From: a virus | DNA: 64,000 nt | IMG/VR virus record: IMGVR_UViG_3300009171_000001 | Span: 1 to 64,000 of that record | Strand: one strand, 5' to 3' | In this document: positions 23,610 through 28,483 of the stretch, piece by piece | Layout of the letters: each line of letters starts with the position of its first letter | Position numbering within the stretch: the stretch's first letter is position 1 | Notes under the pieces: generated by a model | What the model was told of the DNA's origin: nothing | Databases searched by the model: none | The model's input: only the letters and a program-made list of their open reading frames with translations | Position numbers and translations under genes: made by a program

Positions 23610-23672
23610 GGGCCTAATCGGATTACCCGACAAAATATATCGGGTATAGCGGTTCAACTCCGCTATAGGCTC
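23610..23672 (+). ncRNA. tRNA-like element T1 (acceptor stem plus T-arm, no D-arm)
   Basis: GGGCCTA/TAGGCTC stem; T-arm TAGCGG-TTCAACT-CCGCTA. Confidence 0.7.
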
Positions 23673-23725
23673 TTGTGTTTGTAAGTAAAATATCTAATAA
23701 TTATCTTATTTAAGGAGAACAAAAA

Positions 23726-23992
23726 ATGAAAACCGAAACGAAAACCGAAACGAAAATTACGAACGCCGAAAAAAGGGTAATCTTATCCGCTATTCGGGAA
23801 AAGATAAAAATCGCCTCCGATATTCTTTCCGTCGCCACCGTCGAGGAAAATTACGAGGATGAGGTAGTTATCGATGCGATAACGGACGCGGCGTTAATCA
23901 TCGAAATCGCGTATCTTAATTCGCTCGATGACGGCGGAGCGAGGATTCTTTACCCGCCGAAAGACGGGGAGGCCTACCGGAACGGGGAATAA
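23726..23992 (+). CDS. Hypothetical early protein
   Basis: Preceded by the conserved leader ...TAAGGAGAACAAAAA-ATG. Confidence 0.75.
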   Translation: MKTETKTETKITNAEKRVILSAIREKIKIASDILSVATVEENYEDEVVIDAITDAALIIEIAYLNSLDDGGARILYPPKDGEAYRNGE

Positions 23993-23994
23993 AA

Positions 23995-24069
23995 GTTGAA
24001 ATACCCGATAATCTATATCGGGTATATATAGGTGAAAAGCGATAACCTATACTGATGAGACTAATCGCT
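23995..24069 (+). ncRNA. Hammerhead ribozyme H1 (type II, pseudoknotted); predicted cleavage after 24026
   Basis: GTT-GAAA-[TACCCGATA/TATCGGGTA]-TA-[TATAGGT/ACCTATA]-CTGATGA-GAC; loop I AGCGAT pairs with 3' ATCGCT. Confidence 0.92.
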
Positions 24070-24106
24070 AAAATATCTATTTAATATCTATTTAAGGAGA
24101 ACAAAA

Positions 24107-24382
24107 ATGAGAACGTCGAGAAAAGCTCCGATTATTCAAGTCCGAACTTTGGCCGAAAGGATAATCGAAATTAGCGAAAATCCACTAAGTGAAGCAGATT
24201 TTGAAGGGAAGACGGGACGCTCTCGGAGCGAGGTATTACTATTTTTAGCGAAGACTATCCTAATGGAATTAGAATCCACCGCTAAGTCTCGCCTCTTATA
24301 TATACCCGCTAAGTCAAGCATTGCCGCTAAGTCAAGCATTGCCGCTAAGTCAAGCATTGCCGCTAAGTCAAGCATCCGCTAA
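24107..24382 (+). CDS. Hypothetical early protein with C-terminal AKSSIA repeats
   Basis: Conserved leader/RBS; the 18-bp tandem repeat encodes the tail. Confidence 0.7.
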   Translation: MRTSRKAPIIQVRTLAERIIEISENPLSEADFEGKTGRSRSEVLLFLAKTILMELESTAKSRLLYIPAKSSIAAKSSIAAKSSIAAKSSIR

Positions 24383-24385
24383 GTC
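24306..24385 (+). repeat. Tandem 18-bp repeat CCGCTAAGTCAAGCATTG (about 4 copies)
   Basis: CCGCTAAGTC at 24306, 24324, 24342, 24360 and 24376 (also 24279). Confidence 0.9.
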
Positions 24386-24435
24386 TCCATCTGAAATAGA
24401 GGTCAGATTTATAGGTTCGACTCCTATGGAGACTT
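24381..24435 (+). ncRNA. tRNA-like element T2
   Basis: AAGTCTCC/GGAGACTT stem; internal hairpin TCTGA/TCAGA; T-arm ATAGG-TTCGACT-CCTAT. Confidence 0.75.
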
Positions 24436-24481
24436 TTGTAAGTAAAATATCTAATAATTATCTTATTTAAGGAGAACAAAA

Positions 24482-24817
24482 ATGAAGACCAAAATAAAAG
24501 ACACATTAAGACCATTCACTAAACAGGATGATCGCGTTTTTTGCAGCACTAAAAAACCTTCGGATGGCTCAACACCACTTATCGGCAGGGTCAAGATAAC
24601 AAATTGGCCTGATTCCGATAAAACTGATGGGTGGGATGACTTTGTGACTGTAATAGTGGATGGCCTCGGAGTATGTTTGTGTGGGACAGATGGTGTATTA
24701 ACAAGAGCCATCCCAGATTTTGAAGATGCTAAGGCCATTGCATATTACATTCTCTCCACTCCCACAGATTACATCCAACTGGTAAATAGCGGCAAGTGGG
24801 AATCCATCAATCTGTAG
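24482..24817 (+). CDS. Hypothetical early protein
   Basis: Conserved leader/RBS; 111 aa. Confidence 0.75.
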   Translation: MKTKIKDTLRPFTKQDDRVFCSTKKPSDGSTPLIGRVKITNWPDSDKTDGWDDFVTVIVDGLGVCLCGTDGVLTRAIPDFEDAKAIAYYILSTPTDYIQLVNSGKWESINL

Positions 24818-25867: not shown

Positions 25868-25919
25868 TTGTGTTTGTATGTAAAATATCTAATAATTATC
25901 TTATTTAAGGAGAACAAAA

Positions 25920-26159
25920 ATGAACCTGCAAGAAATTAAAAGCCGAGTTGAGGCACTAAAAGCCTCTCTGAAAATTGATGCTGTCGATGCCATTTATGAA
26001 GACAGCTTTGCGCTCGGCTATTTTGGCAATCAAATCCAGCATGAAATTGCCGGCCACGAAGGTTGCTTTGCCTATGCTCGTACATCGAGCAAAGCTCGCA
26101 TCGAGGCGATTGTAAACATGCTTGTGAATGAAGGAGAATGTTTGGCCAAAAAAGACTAA
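25920..26159 (+). CDS. Hypothetical early protein
   Basis: Conserved leader/RBS; 79 aa. Confidence 0.75.
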   Translation: MNLQEIKSRVEALKASLKIDAVDAIYEDSFALGYFGNQIQHEIAGHEGCFAYARTSSKARIEAIVNMLVNEGECLAKKD

Positions 26160-26233
26160 GTCGAAATACCCGATATAGAATATCGGGTATCTACGGATAA
26201 AAGCGATAATCCGTATCGAAAAGACTAATCGCT
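26160..26233 (+). ncRNA. Hammerhead ribozyme H3 with variant core (UCGAAAA); predicted cleavage after 26191
   Basis: GTC-GAAA-stem III-TC-[TACGGAT/ATCCGTA]-TCGAAAA-GAC; compensatory changes in stem I; pseudoknot retained. Confidence 0.8.
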
Positions 26234-26270
26234 AAAATATCTAATAAATATCTTAAAAAGGAGAACAAAA

Positions 26271-27257
26271 ATGAATGCTAAACAAATGAAAGTTGTACTG
26301 ACTAAGTGCATCAAAAACGGTTTGCCCGTGCTTATCAAAGGAGCGCCAGGTGTTGGCAAGTCTGATGTCGTGACGCAAGTAGCTGCTGAATTGAAGATGG
26401 ATTTAATCATCAGCCATCCAGTGGTAAGTGACCCGACAGACTTCAAAGGTCTGCCAGGGATTGTGGATGGCAAAGCTGAATTTTTGCCGTTTGGTGATTT
26501 GCGCTCGCTAATTCAAGCCAAAAAGCCAACAATTGCTTTCTTGGATGATTTGGGCCAAGCACCAGCCGCAGTACAAGCTGCAGCAATGCAACTAATCCTT
26601 GCTCGCCGAGTGAATGGACATAAAGTGAGTGACAAGGTGGTATTTATTGCCGCCACTAATCGACGGCAAGACAGGGCTGGTGTAACAGGCATCCTTGAAC
26701 CTGTTAAGTCCAGATTTGCCACCATCATTGAGTTGACACCAGATTTAGACAGCTGGTCTGAGTGGGCGTTGGCTAATGATGTTCCACCGCAGATTTTGGG
26801 CTTTTTGAATTTTCGCCCAAATTTGCTTTGCACCAATGAAGCAACAGCCGATATTGTGAACCATCCGTGCCCACGTACTTGGGCTTTTGCAAGCAAATTA
26901 ATCCAAATTGATTTGACGGATATACAAAGTCTGGCTGGAGCTTTGGGCGAAGGTTGTGCGGTTGAGTTTGTGGGATTTATGCGAGTGTTCGACAGTTTGC
27001 CGAACATTCAAACAATCCTATTAGACCCAGAAAATACCACCATCCCAAATGAACCTGCCGCTATGTATGCTGTGGTGTCCGCCTTGGTTAATCGAGTGTC
27101 CGACAAGACATTCAAAGCCATAGTTACATATGCTGACCGTTTGCCAGCTGATTTTGGCACGCTGCTAATCCGTGATTGTGTTAAGTCCAATCCAAACATT
27201 CAAAACACTGCTGCTTTTGGTCAATGGGCCATCAAGCACGCTAATTTGCTAATATGA
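26271..27257 (+). CDS. MoxR/CbbQ-like AAA+ ATPase
   Basis: Walker A GAPGVGKS, Walker B FLDD, AATNR, SRF and PRTW motifs. Confidence 0.9.
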   Translation: MNAKQMKVVLTKCIKNGLPVLIKGAPGVGKSDVVTQVAAELKMDLIISHPVVSDPTDFKGLPGIVDGKAEFLPFGDLRSLIQAKKPTIAFLDDLGQAPAAVQAAAMQLILARRVNGHKVSDKVVFIAATNRRQDRAGVTGILEPVKSRFATIIELTPDLDSWSEWALANDVPPQILGFLNFRPNLLCTNEATADIVNHPCPRTWAFASKLIQIDLTDIQSLAGALGEGCAVEFVGFMRVFDSLPNIQTILLDPENTTIPNEPAAMYAVVSALVNRVSDKTFKAIVTYADRLPADFGTLLIRDCVKSNPNIQNTAAFGQWAIKHANLLI

Positions 27258-27265
27258 GGTGTACA

Positions 27266-28372
27266 ATGAATGCTATGGAAATTATGACTAAGGCCAGAAC
27301 TCACTTGTTGCTTGACCATCCATTTTTTGGATGCTTGGCCATGCGATTAAGTCTGGTTGAGGACAATCAGTTTGAAACAGCGGGGACAGATGGCAAGGAA
27401 TTGAGATTCAATTCACAATTCATTCAATCATTACGATTGAATCAAGTGGTTGGATTGTTTGCTCACGAGGTTATGCACTTGGCTTTGGGGCACAACTGGC
27501 GGCAAGGCACACGTGAACATGAACGGTGGAACAACGCTGGCGATTACGCCATCAATTCCAATCTTGTCCGCACTGGGATTCACCTGCCGGATGGTGCTTT
27601 GATTGCTTATCAGTTTGACAAAATGAGTGCAGAAGAAATTTACACTTATCTTCCGTCCAATCCAAACCAAAATCAAAGCTCCGGCTCAAGCCAAACGTCT
27701 GATCCAGGTGGTTGCGGGGCAGTATTACCCACACCCAATGATTCTCAACTGGATGAGACTAAGGCAGAGTGGAAGACAGCAGTGGCTCAAGCCATACAAT
27801 TTGCTGGCATCGGTAATTTGCCTGCGGATTTGGCTCGCCAATTACAATCGGTGATTGACCCATCGTTGCCATGGTATGTATTGCTGCGTGATTTTGTAGA
27901 ACGCTCAGCGCGCAACGATTTCACTTGGCAAAGGCCAAATGCTCGCTACATCAATCAAGGCATTGTTCTGCCAGGATTGATTAGTGAAGAGTTGCCTGAA
28001 GTGATTGTGGCTGTTGATACCAGTGGCTCAATTAGTCAAGCCCAATTGGATTCTTTTGCGGCTGAGGCCAGTGCGGTGCTTAGTGCTTACAAAACAACAA
28101 TCCGTGTGATATATTGCGACAACGAAGTACAAGGCGAGCAAATCTATCAAACAGATGATTTGCCCATCCACTTATCACCGAAAGGTGGTGGCGGGACAAA
28201 GTTTGACCCTGTGTTCCGCTATGTAAACGAGAATGGATATACACCATCCTGCGTGATATATCTGACGGATTTGTTGGGGCCCACACCCCAATGTGAGCCA
28301 GAATGCCCTGTACTTTGGGTAAGTACAAAGCCAGGCAAAATGCCCTTTGGTACAGTGATTCAACTGAATTGA
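27266..28372 (+). CDS. DUF2201-type metallopeptidase plus VWA-like domain protein
   Basis: HEVMH zinc motif, MIDAS DTSGS, GGGGT.F and YLTD motifs. Confidence 0.88.
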   Translation: MNAMEIMTKARTHLLLDHPFFGCLAMRLSLVEDNQFETAGTDGKELRFNSQFIQSLRLNQVVGLFAHEVMHLALGHNWRQGTREHERWNNAGDYAINSNLVRTGIHLPDGALIAYQFDKMSAEEIYTYLPSNPNQNQSSGSSQTSDPGGCGAVLPTPNDSQLDETKAEWKTAVAQAIQFAGIGNLPADLARQLQSVIDPSLPWYVLLRDFVERSARNDFTWQRPNARYINQGIVLPGLISEELPEVIVAVDTSGSISQAQLDSFAAEASAVLSAYKTTIRVIYCDNEVQGEQIYQTDDLPIHLSPKGGGGTKFDPVFRYVNENGYTPSCVIYLTDLLGPTPQCEPECPVLWVSTKPGKMPFGTVIQLN

Positions 28373-28373
28373 A

Positions 28374-28447
28374 TGTCGAAATACCCGATAATCTATATCG
28401 GGTATATATAGGCTAAGGCGATAACCTATACTGATGAGACAATCGCT
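28374..28447 (+). ncRNA. Hammerhead ribozyme H4 (type II); predicted cleavage after 28406
   Basis: TGTC-GAAA-stem III-TA-[TATAGG/CCTATA]-CTGATGA-GACA; pseudoknot GGCGAT/ATCGCT. Confidence 0.92.
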
Positions 28448-28483
28448 AAAATATCTAATAAATATCTTAAAAGGAGAACAAAA

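What the first reader, a model, noticed from the sequence alone, without database searches (positions are those of the whole stretch)
23610..28483. Early operon punctuated by alternating hammerhead ribozymes and tRNA-like elements: a self-processing cassette array
Seen: seven consecutive cistrons each begin with an RNA element plus a shared leader (AAAATATCTA...TC(T)TA...AAGGAGAACAAAA-ATG). The order is T1-gene-H1-gene-T2-gene-H2-gene-T3-gene-H3-AAA/VWA-H4-gene. The hammerheads have all three stems, the core and a loop I/3'-tail pseudoknot, and their predicted cuts lie 77-80 nt before each ATG. Established: hammerheads self-cleave to leave 5'-OH and 2',3'-cyclic phosphate, and acceptor/T-arm minihelices are RNase P/Z substrates. 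Inference: one transcript is cut into monocistronic mRNAs with standardised, structured 5' ends by two interchangeable mechanisms. This would be a natural version of synthetic ribozyme/tRNA insulator arrays; I do not know of it being described in phages.
Basis: partly seen in the sequence, partly recalled or inferred. Interest (0 to 1): 0.95.

Follow-up and report, generated by a model that had tools for sequence, protein, structure and literature searches.

The report
Ribozyme and tRNA-mimic punctuated phage operon
A 74-kb uncultured freshwater-sediment phage separates its first early genes with four hammerhead self-cutting RNAs and three stripped-down tRNA look-alikes, each followed by the same ribosome-binding leader; related phages put one or the other kind at the same gene junctions, so both most likely mark where one long message is cut, though no RNA ends have been seen.

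Summary
Seven units follow in the order T1-H1-T2-H2-T3-H3-H4, each with a shared AU-rich leader and AAGGAGAACAAAAATG. H1, H2 and H4 are complete type II hammerheads with a 6-bp loop I/3'-tail pseudoknot. Cuts are predicted after 24026, 24866 and 28406.

H3 keeps all helices, with three compensated pairs in stem I. Its core is UCGAAAA: a U3-A8 covariation plus U4C, both known natural variants, so it may be slow or inactive.

T1-T3 are not tRNA genes (ARAGORN and Rfam negative). They are acceptor-stem plus T-arm (GGTTCRANYCC) elements that are otherwise unrelated in sequence.

Related IMG/VR phages carry type II hammerheads or tRNA-like/minihelix elements at the same junctions, for example between the DUF3150 gene and the AAA ATPase gene. 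One relative has both kinds in one operon.

Hammerhead clusters flanking phage genes, and the mRNA-processing idea, were published in 2011. tRNA-like processing signals are known from plant mitochondria. I found no paper describing the two alternating in a phage operon. This scan has noted the same layout on at least eight other phage genomes.

No RNA data exist, so cleavage is inferred. I rate it a new variant of a known kind.

The parts
23610..23673 (+). T1: tRNA-like element. It has a 7-bp acceptor stem (GGGCCUA/UAGGCUC), a 7-bp hairpin with the same UACCCGA/UCGGGUA arms as hammerhead stem III, and a T arm AGCGG-UUCAACU-CCGCU, with discriminator U. There is no D arm. Predicted RNase P cut before 23610 and RNase Z-type cut after 23673.
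   Evidence: The MFE fold is this three-way junction, z -4.4. GGTTCRANYCC motif. Acceptor 7/7 and T stem 5/5 paired. Not called a tRNA.
23687..23728 (+). Shared leader plus SD plus ATG, copy 1 of 7. The others start at 24070, 24444, 24910, 25882, 26234 and 28448.
23726..23992 (+). Gene 1, 88 aa, no family match.
23994..24069 (+). H1: type II hammerhead. Stem II AGUU/GACU, GAAA, 10-bp stem III, U-A then cut after 24026, 7-bp stem I, CUGAUGA. Loop I AGCGAU pairs with the 3' tail AUCGCU.
24107..24382 (+). Gene 2, 91 aa, no family match. Its 3' end holds an 18-nt tandem repeat (CCGCTAAGTCAAGCATTG, 4.6 copies, 24306-24385).
24383..24434 (+). T2: tRNA-like element. 6-bp acceptor GUCUCC/GGAGAC, a small hairpin, T arm AUAGG-UUCGACU-CCUAU, discriminator U.
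   Evidence: The MFE fold is this structure, z -2.5.. A strain variant has 24413 A>G with 24425 T>C (compensatory in the T stem) and 24419 G>A (T-loop purine kept).
24482..24817 (+). Gene 3, 111 aa, no family match. It is replaced by other sequence in one strain contig.
24834..24909 (+). H2: type II hammerhead, cut after 24866.
   Evidence: The MFE equals the hammerhead secondary structure, z -4.0.
24947..25807 (+). Gene 4, 286 aa, DUF3150-like.
   Evidence: Homologues carry PF11348. Syntenic with the ATPase and VWA genes in the relatives.
25818..25868 (+). T3: tRNA-like element. 8-bp acceptor GACCACCG/CGGUGGUC, T arm AUGGG-UUCAAAC-CCCAU, discriminator U.
   Evidence: Weak full-length match to the mascRNA model (19.6 bits). 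The tRNA-like fold is 2.9 kcal/mol above the MFE.
25920..26159 (+). Gene 5, 79 aa, no family match.
26159..26233 (+). H3: hammerhead-shaped unit with the variant core UCGAAAA (U3, C4, A8). Stem I is rebuilt by three double changes and the pseudoknot is kept. The cut, if active, falls after 26191.
   Evidence: The MFE equals the hammerhead structure.
26271..27257 (+). Gene 6, MoxR-type AAA+ ATPase.
   Evidence: PF07728 and phrog_1297.
27254..28372 (+). Gene 7, DUF2201_N metallopeptidase-like domain plus VWA-like DUF2201. The likelier start is 27268, behind GAGG. It has no RNA module of its own.
28374..28447 (+). H4: type II hammerhead, cut after 28406. Stem II is 3-4 bp; the pseudoknot is GGCGAU/AUCGCU.
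28484..28690 (+). Gene 8, 68 aa.
28709..28738 (+). Three tandem copies of CGCTAAGGCT in the next gap, which has the SD but no hammerhead or tRNA-like element.
30274..30305 (+). Terminator-like hairpin (13 pairs followed by a U-rich tail). Likely end of the early transcription unit.

Best explanation
The stretch is the promoter-proximal part of one early transcription unit, from about 23.55 to 30.3 kb, of a complete 73.8-kb phage with direct terminal repeats. The unit lies between the packaging/structural arm on the minus strand and the replication genes.

Seven gene units are each built as [RNA module]-[AU-rich leader]-[AAGGAG SD]-ATG. Four modules are type II hammerheads that cut themselves during or just after transcription. 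Because the type II form closes both stem III and stem I with loops, each cut leaves two structured ends. The upstream mRNA ends in a 10-bp hairpin with a 2',3'-cyclic phosphate. The downstream mRNA starts with a 5'-OH directly on a 7-bp hairpin. H3 carries a U3-A8/C4 core and probably cuts slowly or not at all.

The three other modules are D-arm-less tRNA mimics (acceptor stem stacked on a T arm). These are the minimal shape recognised by host RNase P at the 5' side and by RNase Z, or RNase E plus trimming, at the 3' side. They would do the same job using host enzymes.

Shown here: the sequence anatomy, the compensatory changes, and the exchange of the two module kinds at the same junctions in related phages. 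Inferred: that either kind is cut in vivo, that the operon is one transcript, and what the end structures do for stability or translation.
For: Hammerheads:
- H1, H2 and H4 have every consensus core nucleotide in type II order, with no mispair next to the core.
- 27 pairs are 99.1% formed. Three pairs in stem I are compensated on both sides, and the 6-bp pseudoknot matches the published type II consensus.
- The MFE of H2 and H3 equals the hammerhead fold.
- The descriptor gives 0.1 hits per 749 kb of shuffled DNA and 0 hits in 650 kb of control genome loci.

Relatives:
- 20 type II hits lie on the gene strand against 2 on the other strand. They represent 13 distinct units on 8 distinct contigs, many directly upstream of the ATPase gene.
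- L009's three units score 29-32 bits on Rfam Hammerhead_II.

H3:
- U3-A8 covariation is natural and active, and U4C is a natural viroid variant that works in vivo (PMC3088659).
- C4 recurs in two hammerhead-shaped units of L044.

tRNA mimics:
- The only three GGTTCRANYCC motifs in the genome sit in these gaps.
- The three bodies share no sequence beyond the T loop, yet all form an acceptor stem plus a T arm.
- A strain variant has a compensatory change in the T stem.
- tRNA-like or minihelix hits in relatives are 16 on the gene strand against 5 on the other, with about 1.2 expected.
- The junction after the DUF3150 gene holds a tRNA-like element in the window (T3), L021, L022, L023 and L048, and a hammerhead in L009/L018.
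- Within one well-supported ATPase clade of 16 rows, the slot upstream of the ATPase is a hammerhead in 2, tRNA-like in 2 and empty in 12.

Established knowledge:
- Acceptor/T-stem/T-loop hairpins are RNase P substrates, and RNase P cuts some operon mRNAs and phage RNAs (PMC11143913).
- t-elements with the same GGTTCRANYCC motif direct RNase P/Z cuts at plant mitochondrial mRNA ends (PMC1920247).
Against: - No RNA evidence of any kind exists for this phage.
- Rfam's hammerhead models do not report H1-H4 even at E<=10 on a 161-nt query, so the assignment rests on my descriptor and the published criteria.
- H1-H4 are about 90% identical paralogues, so their shared core is largely one event.
- H3's core deviates at three conserved positions.
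- T3's tRNA-like fold is 2.9 kcal/mol worse than its MFE.
- T1-T3 encode no CCA, and their coaxial stacks are 11-13 bp, not exactly 12.
- Most relatives (60 of 68) have no module in the ATPase slot, so the modules are dispensable.
- Predicted SD accessibility is the same with and without cleavage, so the insulator idea gets no support from folding.
Confidence: 0.6

Rival explanations
1. Only the hammerheads cut. The tRNA-like elements are decayed phage tRNA genes, or plain structural elements (end-protecting structures, weak terminators), that are not processed.
For: - A relative (L008/L033) has a real tRNA-Met followed by two reduced tRNA-like units in the same operon, which suggests an origin by decay of tRNA genes.
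- Each T element is followed by a U/G-rich tract (UUGUGUUUGUAAGU), and L030 has hairpins followed by CUUGUAUGUUUU, which loosely resembles a terminator.
- T3's T arm is not in the MFE fold.
Against: - Three unrelated sequences all keep acceptor plus T-arm geometry with G1-C72, and a strain variant compensates a T-stem pair.
- The same slots hold hammerheads in relatives.
- The terminator scan does not call them.
- Real tRNAs inside operons are processed anyway.
Confidence: 0.2
2. The repeats matter mainly at the DNA level. Module plus leader are portable junctions at which homologous recombination swaps small early genes between phages (cassette shuffling), and RNA cleavage is secondary.
For: - Contigs from other metagenomes keep the module and leader but continue into different cargo after the ATG (loose ends at 24489 and 24949).
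- Those contigs also show joints between leaders or hammerheads: 24933 to 26258, 26159 to 28375, and 24494 to 24828.
- The T-type trailers plus leaders are almost identical over about 58 nt, while the tRNA-like bodies differ.
- Cargo genes differ between syntenic relatives.
Against: - The contig evidence is at low depth (2-7x), and some joints lie in repeats.
- Recombination needs only sequence identity. It explains neither a complete ribozyme core, nor compensatory pairs, nor tRNA geometry kept in three unrelated sequences.
- This rival is compatible with the main explanation and does not replace it.
Confidence: 0.1
3. Each unit is a terminator/promoter cassette, so the genes are transcribed separately and nothing is processed.
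For: T-type leaders contain TTGTAA-17 nt-TATCTT, an 8 of 12 match to the sigma-70 consensus.
Against: - The scan finds no excess of promoter-like or terminator-like sites between 22.8 and 30.5 kb and none at the modules (20 found against 18.7 expected, and 9 against 6.5).
- Hammerhead-type leaders lack the -35-like hexamer.
- A start 7 nt after TATCTT would fall on or in the SD.
- Stem I covariation in H3 argues for RNA-level selection.
Confidence: 0.05
4. Segments flanked by two hammerheads (for example AAA/VWA between H3 and H4) are ligated into circular or spliced RNAs through their 5'-OH and 2',3'-cyclic phosphate ends.
For: The end chemistry is right for RtcB-type ligases. The H4 5' half and the H3 3' half could re-form a hammerhead (inference).
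Against: - Perreault et al. looked for spliced or circular products from clustered phage hammerheads and found none (PMC3088659).
- No RNA ligase gene was seen among the 40 proteins I scanned.
- H3 may be inactive.
Confidence: 0.05

Closest known systems
Clustered type II hammerhead ribozymes flanking single genes or short gene blocks in prophages (Perreault et al. 2011, PMC3088659; Rfam RF02276)
   Same: The type II topology, the loop I/3'-tail pseudoknot of at least 4 bp, several copies within a few kb between phage genes of varying identity, and the proposal that long phage transcripts are cut into gene-length mRNAs. U3-A8 and U4C core variants are also known.
   Different: - The hammerheads here alternate with tRNA-like elements in one array and are fused to a standard leader and SD.
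- H1-H4 are AU-rich with a 10-bp stem III.
- The Rfam model does not report them.
t-elements and the tRNA punctuation of mitochondrial transcripts (Forner et al. 2007, PMC1920247)
   Same: Non-canonical tRNA-like structures with a conserved GGTTCRANYCC T arm and an acceptor-like stem sit between coding regions. There, the element borders coincide with mRNA ends made by RNase P and RNase Z.
   Different: That work is on organelles, not a phage, and involves no ribozymes. End mapping exists there and not here.
RNase P cleavage of minihelix model substrates, operon mRNAs and phage RNAs (McClain, Guerrier-Takada and Altman 1987; Li and Altman 2003; C4 and M3 RNAs; reviewed in PMC11143913)
   Same: An acceptor stem plus T stem-loop is enough for bacterial RNase P, and RNase P cuts within some polycistronic mRNAs.
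   Different: Those are single sites in cellular operons or phage small RNAs. None is a repeated module in a phage early operon.
Rfam freshwater-2 RNA (RF02980), a cis-regulatory candidate from freshwater metagenomes
   Same: Two or three hairpins followed by an AU-rich leader and AAGGAGAAAAcAAAUG. The H3 and T1 units align full-length to the model (26.5 and 25.2 bits).
   Different: The scores are far below the gathering score of 49.9. The family consensus has no CUGAUGA core and no T loop. It may be a third kind of module in front of a similar leader.
HDV-like theta ribozymes next to tRNA genes of gut phages (PMC10879173, title and abstract only)
   Same: Self-cleaving ribozymes and tRNA-shaped RNAs occur together in phage transcription units.
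   Different: That is another ribozyme class, placed adjacent to real tRNAs. Here hammerheads and tRNA mimics sit at separate gene junctions.
Synthetic ribozyme insulators (RiboJ) and tRNA-spaced polycistronic arrays; PeSL early-promoter cassettes of T4-type phages (all recalled from memory, not checked here)
   Same: Standardised 5' ends made by a self-cleaving ribozyme or by tRNA processing, and repeated regulatory cassettes that flank small early phage genes and promote shuffling.
   Different: The first two are engineered parts. PeSL units are promoters plus stem-loops, not processing elements.

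Membership tests
Hammerhead ribozyme, type II | Core nucleotides C3 U4 G5 A6 N7 G8 A9, G12 A13 A14, A15.1-U16.1 and H17 | tested here: met
   Met for H1, H2 and H4. NOT met for H3, whose core is U3 C4 G5 A6 A7 A8 A9. 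U3-A8 and U4C are each known natural variants.
Hammerhead ribozyme, type II | Three helices in the order 5'-II, III (closed), I (closed), 3'-II, with no mispair next to the core | tested here: met
   Stem III 10 bp, stem I 6-7 bp, stem II 3-4 bp in all four units. 99.1% of cells are paired and three pairs are compensated on both sides.
Hammerhead ribozyme, type II | Pseudoknot of at least 4 bp between loop I and the nucleotides just 3' of stem II | tested here: met
   AGCGAU/AUCGCU, 6 bp, in all four (G-U at one pair in H4). It never covaries. The criterion is from PMC3088659.
Hammerhead ribozyme, type II | Score at or above the gathering score (37 bits) of Rfam RF02276 | tested here: not met
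   No hammerhead family is reported at gathering or at E<=10. There is only a partial RAGATH-1 hammerhead match at H3 (20.5 bits). The compact hammerheads of relative L009 reach 29-32 bits.
Hammerhead ribozyme, type II | Site-specific self-cleavage | not testable with these tools
   No RNA run holds this phage.
tRNA gene | Cloverleaf with D arm, anticodon arm and T arm, recognised by ARAGORN or Rfam RF00005 | tested here: not met
   ARAGORN finds 0 genes in the window and in the genome. There is no RF00005 hit at E<=10. T1-T3 lack a D arm and a proper anticodon arm.
tRNA-like processing signals (t-elements, RNase P/Z minihelix substrates) | Conserved T-arm motif GGTTCRANYCC with a 5-bp T stem | tested here: met
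   All three elements have it, and these are the only three copies in the genome.
tRNA-like processing signals (t-elements, RNase P/Z minihelix substrates) | Acceptor-like stem directly 3' of the T stem, able to stack on it (about 12 bp in total), closed by G1-C72 | tested here: met
   Acceptor stems of 7, 6 and 8 bp give stacks of 11-13 bp, and G1-C72 is present in all three.
tRNA-like processing signals (t-elements, RNase P/Z minihelix substrates) | RNA ends that coincide with the element borders, or cleavage by RNase P or RNase Z | not testable with these tools
   No RNA data.
Rfam freshwater-2 (RF02980) | Score at or above the gathering score of 49.9 bits | tested here: not met
   26.5 bits (H3 unit) and 25.2 bits (T1 unit).
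Terminator/promoter cassettes | Sigma-70-like hexamers or a GC-rich hairpin plus T run at each unit, in excess of chance | tested here: not met
   20 promoter-like sites against 18.7 expected, and 9 terminator-like sites against 6.5 expected. None is at the modules.

The most novel reading that the evidence does not exclude
Phages of this ATPase-DUF3150-VWA lineage use a modular RNA punctuation system. In it, a self-cleaving hammerhead and a minimal tRNA mimic cut by host RNase P/Z are functionally interchangeable parts, each fused to a standard translation leader. The parts are swapped at the same gene junctions over short evolutionary distances, and they also serve as recombination joints for exchanging early cargo genes. 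If so, the equivalence with a host-nuclease signal would show that the long-sought biological role of phage and bacterial hammerheads is simply to cut RNA at gene boundaries.
Probability: 0.45. Interest if true: 0.75.

Novelty: new variant of a known kind. Interest (0 to 1): 0.62.

Why it matters
Thousands of hammerheads are known in bacteria and phages, but a 2019 review still calls their biological role undefined (PMC6765202). Here one operon, and a family of related phages, use a hammerhead or a tRNA-shaped RNase P/Z substrate in the same slot. That is a natural substitution experiment: the only thing the two share is that they cause an RNA cut. It makes the mRNA-processing hypothesis directly testable, with defined cut sites, and points to end structure as the selected property: hairpin plus cyclic phosphate, or hairpin plus 5'-OH. 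It also offers natural, compact insulator parts for operon design. The hammerhead half is established knowledge, so the added value lies in the pairing and in the comparative evidence.

Tried and rejected
- Rfam at gathering thresholds on the whole window gave nothing. At E<=10 there were only weak freshwater-2, partial RAGATH-1 and mascRNA matches.
- ARAGORN found no tRNA or tmRNA.
- blastn of the region against 50,697 phage records gave no match.
- An exact stem III pattern and a single-protein scan in IMG/VR gave no match.
- A 28-sequence alignment was too diverse for the search for related loci; smaller alignments worked.
- My one metagenome scan used the pattern TACCCGAYN7RTCGGGTA, which was too loose. 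It returned 119 unrelated single hits, mostly terminator-like hairpins, and none was a hammerhead.
- Sequencing runs: no RNA holder is listed, only four DNA metagenome runs.
- Contigs laid on the region gave strain variants and joints at low depth only.
- Predicted SD accessibility with and without cleavage showed no consistent difference, 0.45-0.63 against 0.47-0.54.
- The promoter/terminator scan showed no enrichment.
- Folding the 311-nt GC-rich stretch 23225-23535 on either strand was not better than shuffles, z about -1.
- 80 ATPase loci from prokaryote genomes had no hammerhead or tRNA-like element nearby. I used them as a negative control, and the host stays unknown.
- The literature search term 'freshwater-2' returned only unrelated papers. 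The twister and 2015 ribozyme-discovery papers are not held.
- The careful tree did not finish, so only the quick tree is reported.

Full report
WHAT IS THERE

The window is bases 1-64000 of a 73,759-bp IMG/VR virus record with 123-bp direct terminal repeats. It was assembled from a freshwater sediment metagenome.

Left of about 23.1 kb lie minus-strand packaging and structural genes: HTH small terminase, large terminase, portal, Mu F, capsid and tape measure. From 23.7 to about 60 kb the genes are on the plus strand. After 30.4 kb they are replication genes: SNF2 helicase, primase, DnaB-like, UDG-exonuclease, PolA, clamp loader and RecA.

The finding is the first 5 kb of the plus-strand arm. 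A good terminator-like hairpin at 30274-30305 probably ends this early unit.

THE OBSERVATION

- The leader AAAATATCTANNNNNTATCT occurs seven times in the whole genome, only at 23687-28467.
- AAGGAGAACAAAAATG occurs eight times exactly plus two near-copies, between 23712 and 29691.
- The order is T1, gene 1 (88 aa), H1, gene 2 (91 aa), T2, gene 3 (111 aa), H2, gene 4 (286 aa, DUF3150-like), T3, gene 5 (79 aa), H3, AAA ATPase plus DUF2201/VWA, H4, gene 8 (68 aa).
- The modules are packed tightly. H1, H3 and H4 begin 0-2 nt after the stop codon of the gene before them.

THE HAMMERHEADS

A descriptor was written from the published criteria: consensus core, A15.1-U16.1, H17, three helices, type II order.

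On the alignment of the four units, the 27 pairs of stems I-III and the pseudoknot are 99.1% formed. Sliding the partners by 1-3 columns drops this to 22-40%. Three stem I pairs are changed on both sides, all of them in H3. The MFE folds of H2 and H3 are the hammerhead secondary structure.

The pseudoknot (loop I AGCGAU with AUCGCU just after stem II) is the feature Perreault et al. found in most type II hammerheads and showed to be needed for fast cleavage (PMC3088659).

H3 is the exception. Its core reads UCGAAAA.
- C3 to U with G8 to A is the U3-A8 covariation that the same paper reports as natural and active.
- U4C is cited there as a viroid variant with much reduced activity in vitro but enough in vivo.
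- Two hammerhead-shaped units in relative L044 also carry C4, with core CCGAUGA.

H3 is therefore best described as a structurally maintained variant of uncertain rate.

Caveats:
- Rfam reports no hammerhead family for H1-H4, even at E<=10 on 161 nt.
- The Rfam type II model is GC-rich with a 6-bp stem III. It scores even the textbook-like units of L009 below its threshold, at 29-32 bits against 37.
- H1-H4 are about 90% identical, so they are not four independent observations.

THE tRNA-LIKE ELEMENTS

ARAGORN and the Rfam tRNA model reject T1-T3. Yet the only three GGTTCRANYCC motifs in the genome are in these three gaps. Each is the loop and stem of a 5-bp T arm followed directly by the 3' strand of a 6-8-bp acceptor-like stem closed by G1-C72, and then by a U.

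- T1 and T2 fold this way as their MFE (z -4.4 and -2.5).
- T3's tRNA-like fold is 2.9 kcal/mol above its MFE.
- The three bodies share no sequence beyond the T loop, whereas the 58 nt that follow them are almost identical. The shape, not the sequence, is what is kept.
- T1's middle hairpin has the same arms as hammerhead stem III.
- A contig from another sediment metagenome carries T2 with 24413 A>G plus 24425 T>C, which turns an A-U pair of the T stem into G-C. It also carries 24419 G>A, a purine-to-purine change at the R of the T loop.

RELATIVES

Homologues of the DUF3150-like protein and of the ATPase brought in 7 and then 80 IMG/VR loci with the same gene order.

Counts in the 80 loci:

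| Element | Gene strand | Other strand | Shuffled DNA | 650 kb of ATPase loci from prokaryote genomes |
|---|---|---|---|---|
| Type II hammerhead | 20 hits | 2 hits | 0.1 | 0 |
| tRNA-like / minihelix | 16 hits | 5 hits (one a real tRNA) | about 1.2 | 4 (one a real tRNA; the rest look like chance hits) |

The 20 gene-strand hammerhead hits are 13 distinct units on 8 distinct contigs.

The same junctions are used:
- L009/L018: hammerheads before three genes, including DUF3150|ATPase, each followed by that phage's own shared leader.
- L034-36, L041 and L050: a hammerhead directly upstream of the ATPase.
- L022, L023 and L048: a tRNA-like element at DUF3150|ATPase.
- L021: two hammerheads plus a tRNA-like element in the slot of T3 (after DUF3150, before a small gene), with a similar UUUGUAGUGUAAAAC trailer.
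- L012/L022: 11-12-bp hairpins capped by UGCAAUU, which is the geometry of an acceptor-T minihelix.
- L030: a minihelix followed by CUUGUAAGUAAAA, as in the window.
- L008/L033: a real tRNA-Met followed by two reduced units.

On a quick ATPase tree, a well-supported clade of 16 rows that holds the window has this slot as hammerhead twice, tRNA-like twice and empty twelve times. The modules are therefore gained, lost and exchanged over short distances, and they are not essential.

MECHANISM

Inferred steps:
- One early transcript is cut at each module.
- A type II hammerhead is the one topology in which both helices flanking the scissile bond are closed hairpins.
- The upstream product therefore ends in stem III (10 bp) with a 2',3'-cyclic phosphate, and the downstream product starts with 5'-OH directly on stem I.
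- Both ends should resist exonucleases and 5'-end-dependent RNase E.

The basis for the second half is established knowledge. Acceptor/T-stem/T-loop hairpins are RNase P substrates, and RNase P cuts some operon mRNAs and phage RNAs (PMC11143913). t-elements with the same T-arm motif define mRNA ends in plant mitochondria (PMC1920247).

Folding gives no sign that cleavage changes SD accessibility.

RIVALS

The rivals considered are: decayed tRNA genes or terminator-like structures that are not cut; recombination joints for cassette exchange; separate promoters; and circularisation. The section Rival explanations sets each out with its odds.

The recombination idea has some support from contigs that keep the module and leader but continue into different cargo. 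It does not explain the RNA-level conservation, and I treat it as an additional role.

WHAT IS KNOWN AND WHAT IS NEW

Clusters of type II hammerheads flanking phage genes, the pseudoknot, the core variants and the processing proposal are from 2011. A 2019 review still lists the function as unresolved.

I found no paper that describes tRNA-like elements alternating with hammerheads in a phage operon. This was a search of an open-access library only. The nearest phage case is HDV-like theta ribozymes beside real tRNAs.

Rfam's freshwater-2 motif shares the leader and SD and two hairpins, but neither catalytic core nor T loop. It may be a further module type in related phages.

This scan has already noted the same layout on at least eight other phage genomes. 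Those are unchecked AI notes and I did not use them as evidence. One of them gave me the t-element reference, which I then read.

VERDICT

The feature is real, and the hammerhead part is known. The pairing with tRNA mimics and their exchange at fixed junctions is a new variant of a known kind, supported by comparison but not by RNA data.

Noticed in passing
window 24280-24385, 24829-24837, 28709-28738: The motif CGCTAAG(T/G)C occurs 11 times in the window, all on the + strand, and 10 of the copies lie inside the early operon (0.26 expected). It forms an 18-nt tandem repeat (4.6 copies) in the 3' end of gene 2 abutting T2, the 5' flank and stem II strand of H2, and three 10-nt repeats in the one gap that has the SD but no hammerhead or tRNA-like element. 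Its role is unknown; it could be a protein or nuclease site, or a duplication scar.
   Followed up: partly
L014:3385-12700: A more distant relative (IMG/VR 3300037852_000181) puts a different repeated unit of about 45 nt in front of more than ten early genes. The unit is TGTTTCTGTCC, a 7-bp hairpin, GTGAGAAGC..GCTTC, then AGGAGG. It has no Rfam match and could be another processing-module class.
   Followed up: partly
L012/L022: 345-375, 676-706, 3459-3489, 4669-4699 (L022 coordinates): Four 11-12-bp hairpins capped by UGCAAUU loops, each in front of a gene. This is the geometry of the classical acceptor-T minihelix.
   Followed up: partly
L044:2559-2612 and 2858-2916 (the same in L045): Two type II hammerhead-shaped units with the core CCGAUGA (U4C) and otherwise perfect helices. 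This is the same C4 seen in window H3.
   Followed up: no
L008:5663-5830 (= L033:4594-4760): A real tRNA-Met is followed in tandem by two reduced acceptor/T-arm units upstream of the ATPase gene. It is a possible intermediate between phage tRNA genes and the tRNA mimics.
   Followed up: partly
window 23225-23535: A 311-nt GC-rich stretch without ORFs lies between the small terminase gene and T1, flanked by AT-rich repeat blocks (22930-23215 and 23536-23600). Its predicted folding is no better than shuffles on either strand.
   Followed up: yes
window 24489, 24949, 25750, 26126; joints 24933>26258, 26159>28375, 24494>24828, 28486>24375: Contigs from three other sediment or wetland metagenomes keep the modules and leaders but diverge in the cargo genes, or join one leader or hammerhead to another unit. 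This suggests cassette exchange between strains. The depth is low (2-7x), so it is weak evidence.
   Followed up: partly
window 26169-26273 and 23626-23728: The H3 and T1 units, with leader and ATG, align full-length to Rfam freshwater-2 (RF02980) at about half its gathering score. That family's consensus ends in a nearly identical SD/AUG.
   Followed up: partly
window 28762-29268: A 168-aa protein in the same early unit has a weak Sigma70_r2 match (21.8 bits, below the cut-off). It is a possible phage sigma-like factor.
   Followed up: no
L063:195-250 and L086:9370-9424: Canonical type I hammerheads occur in two more distant relatives of the same ATPase lineage. L063 also has a T-loop minihelix directly upstream of its ATPase gene.
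   Followed up: no
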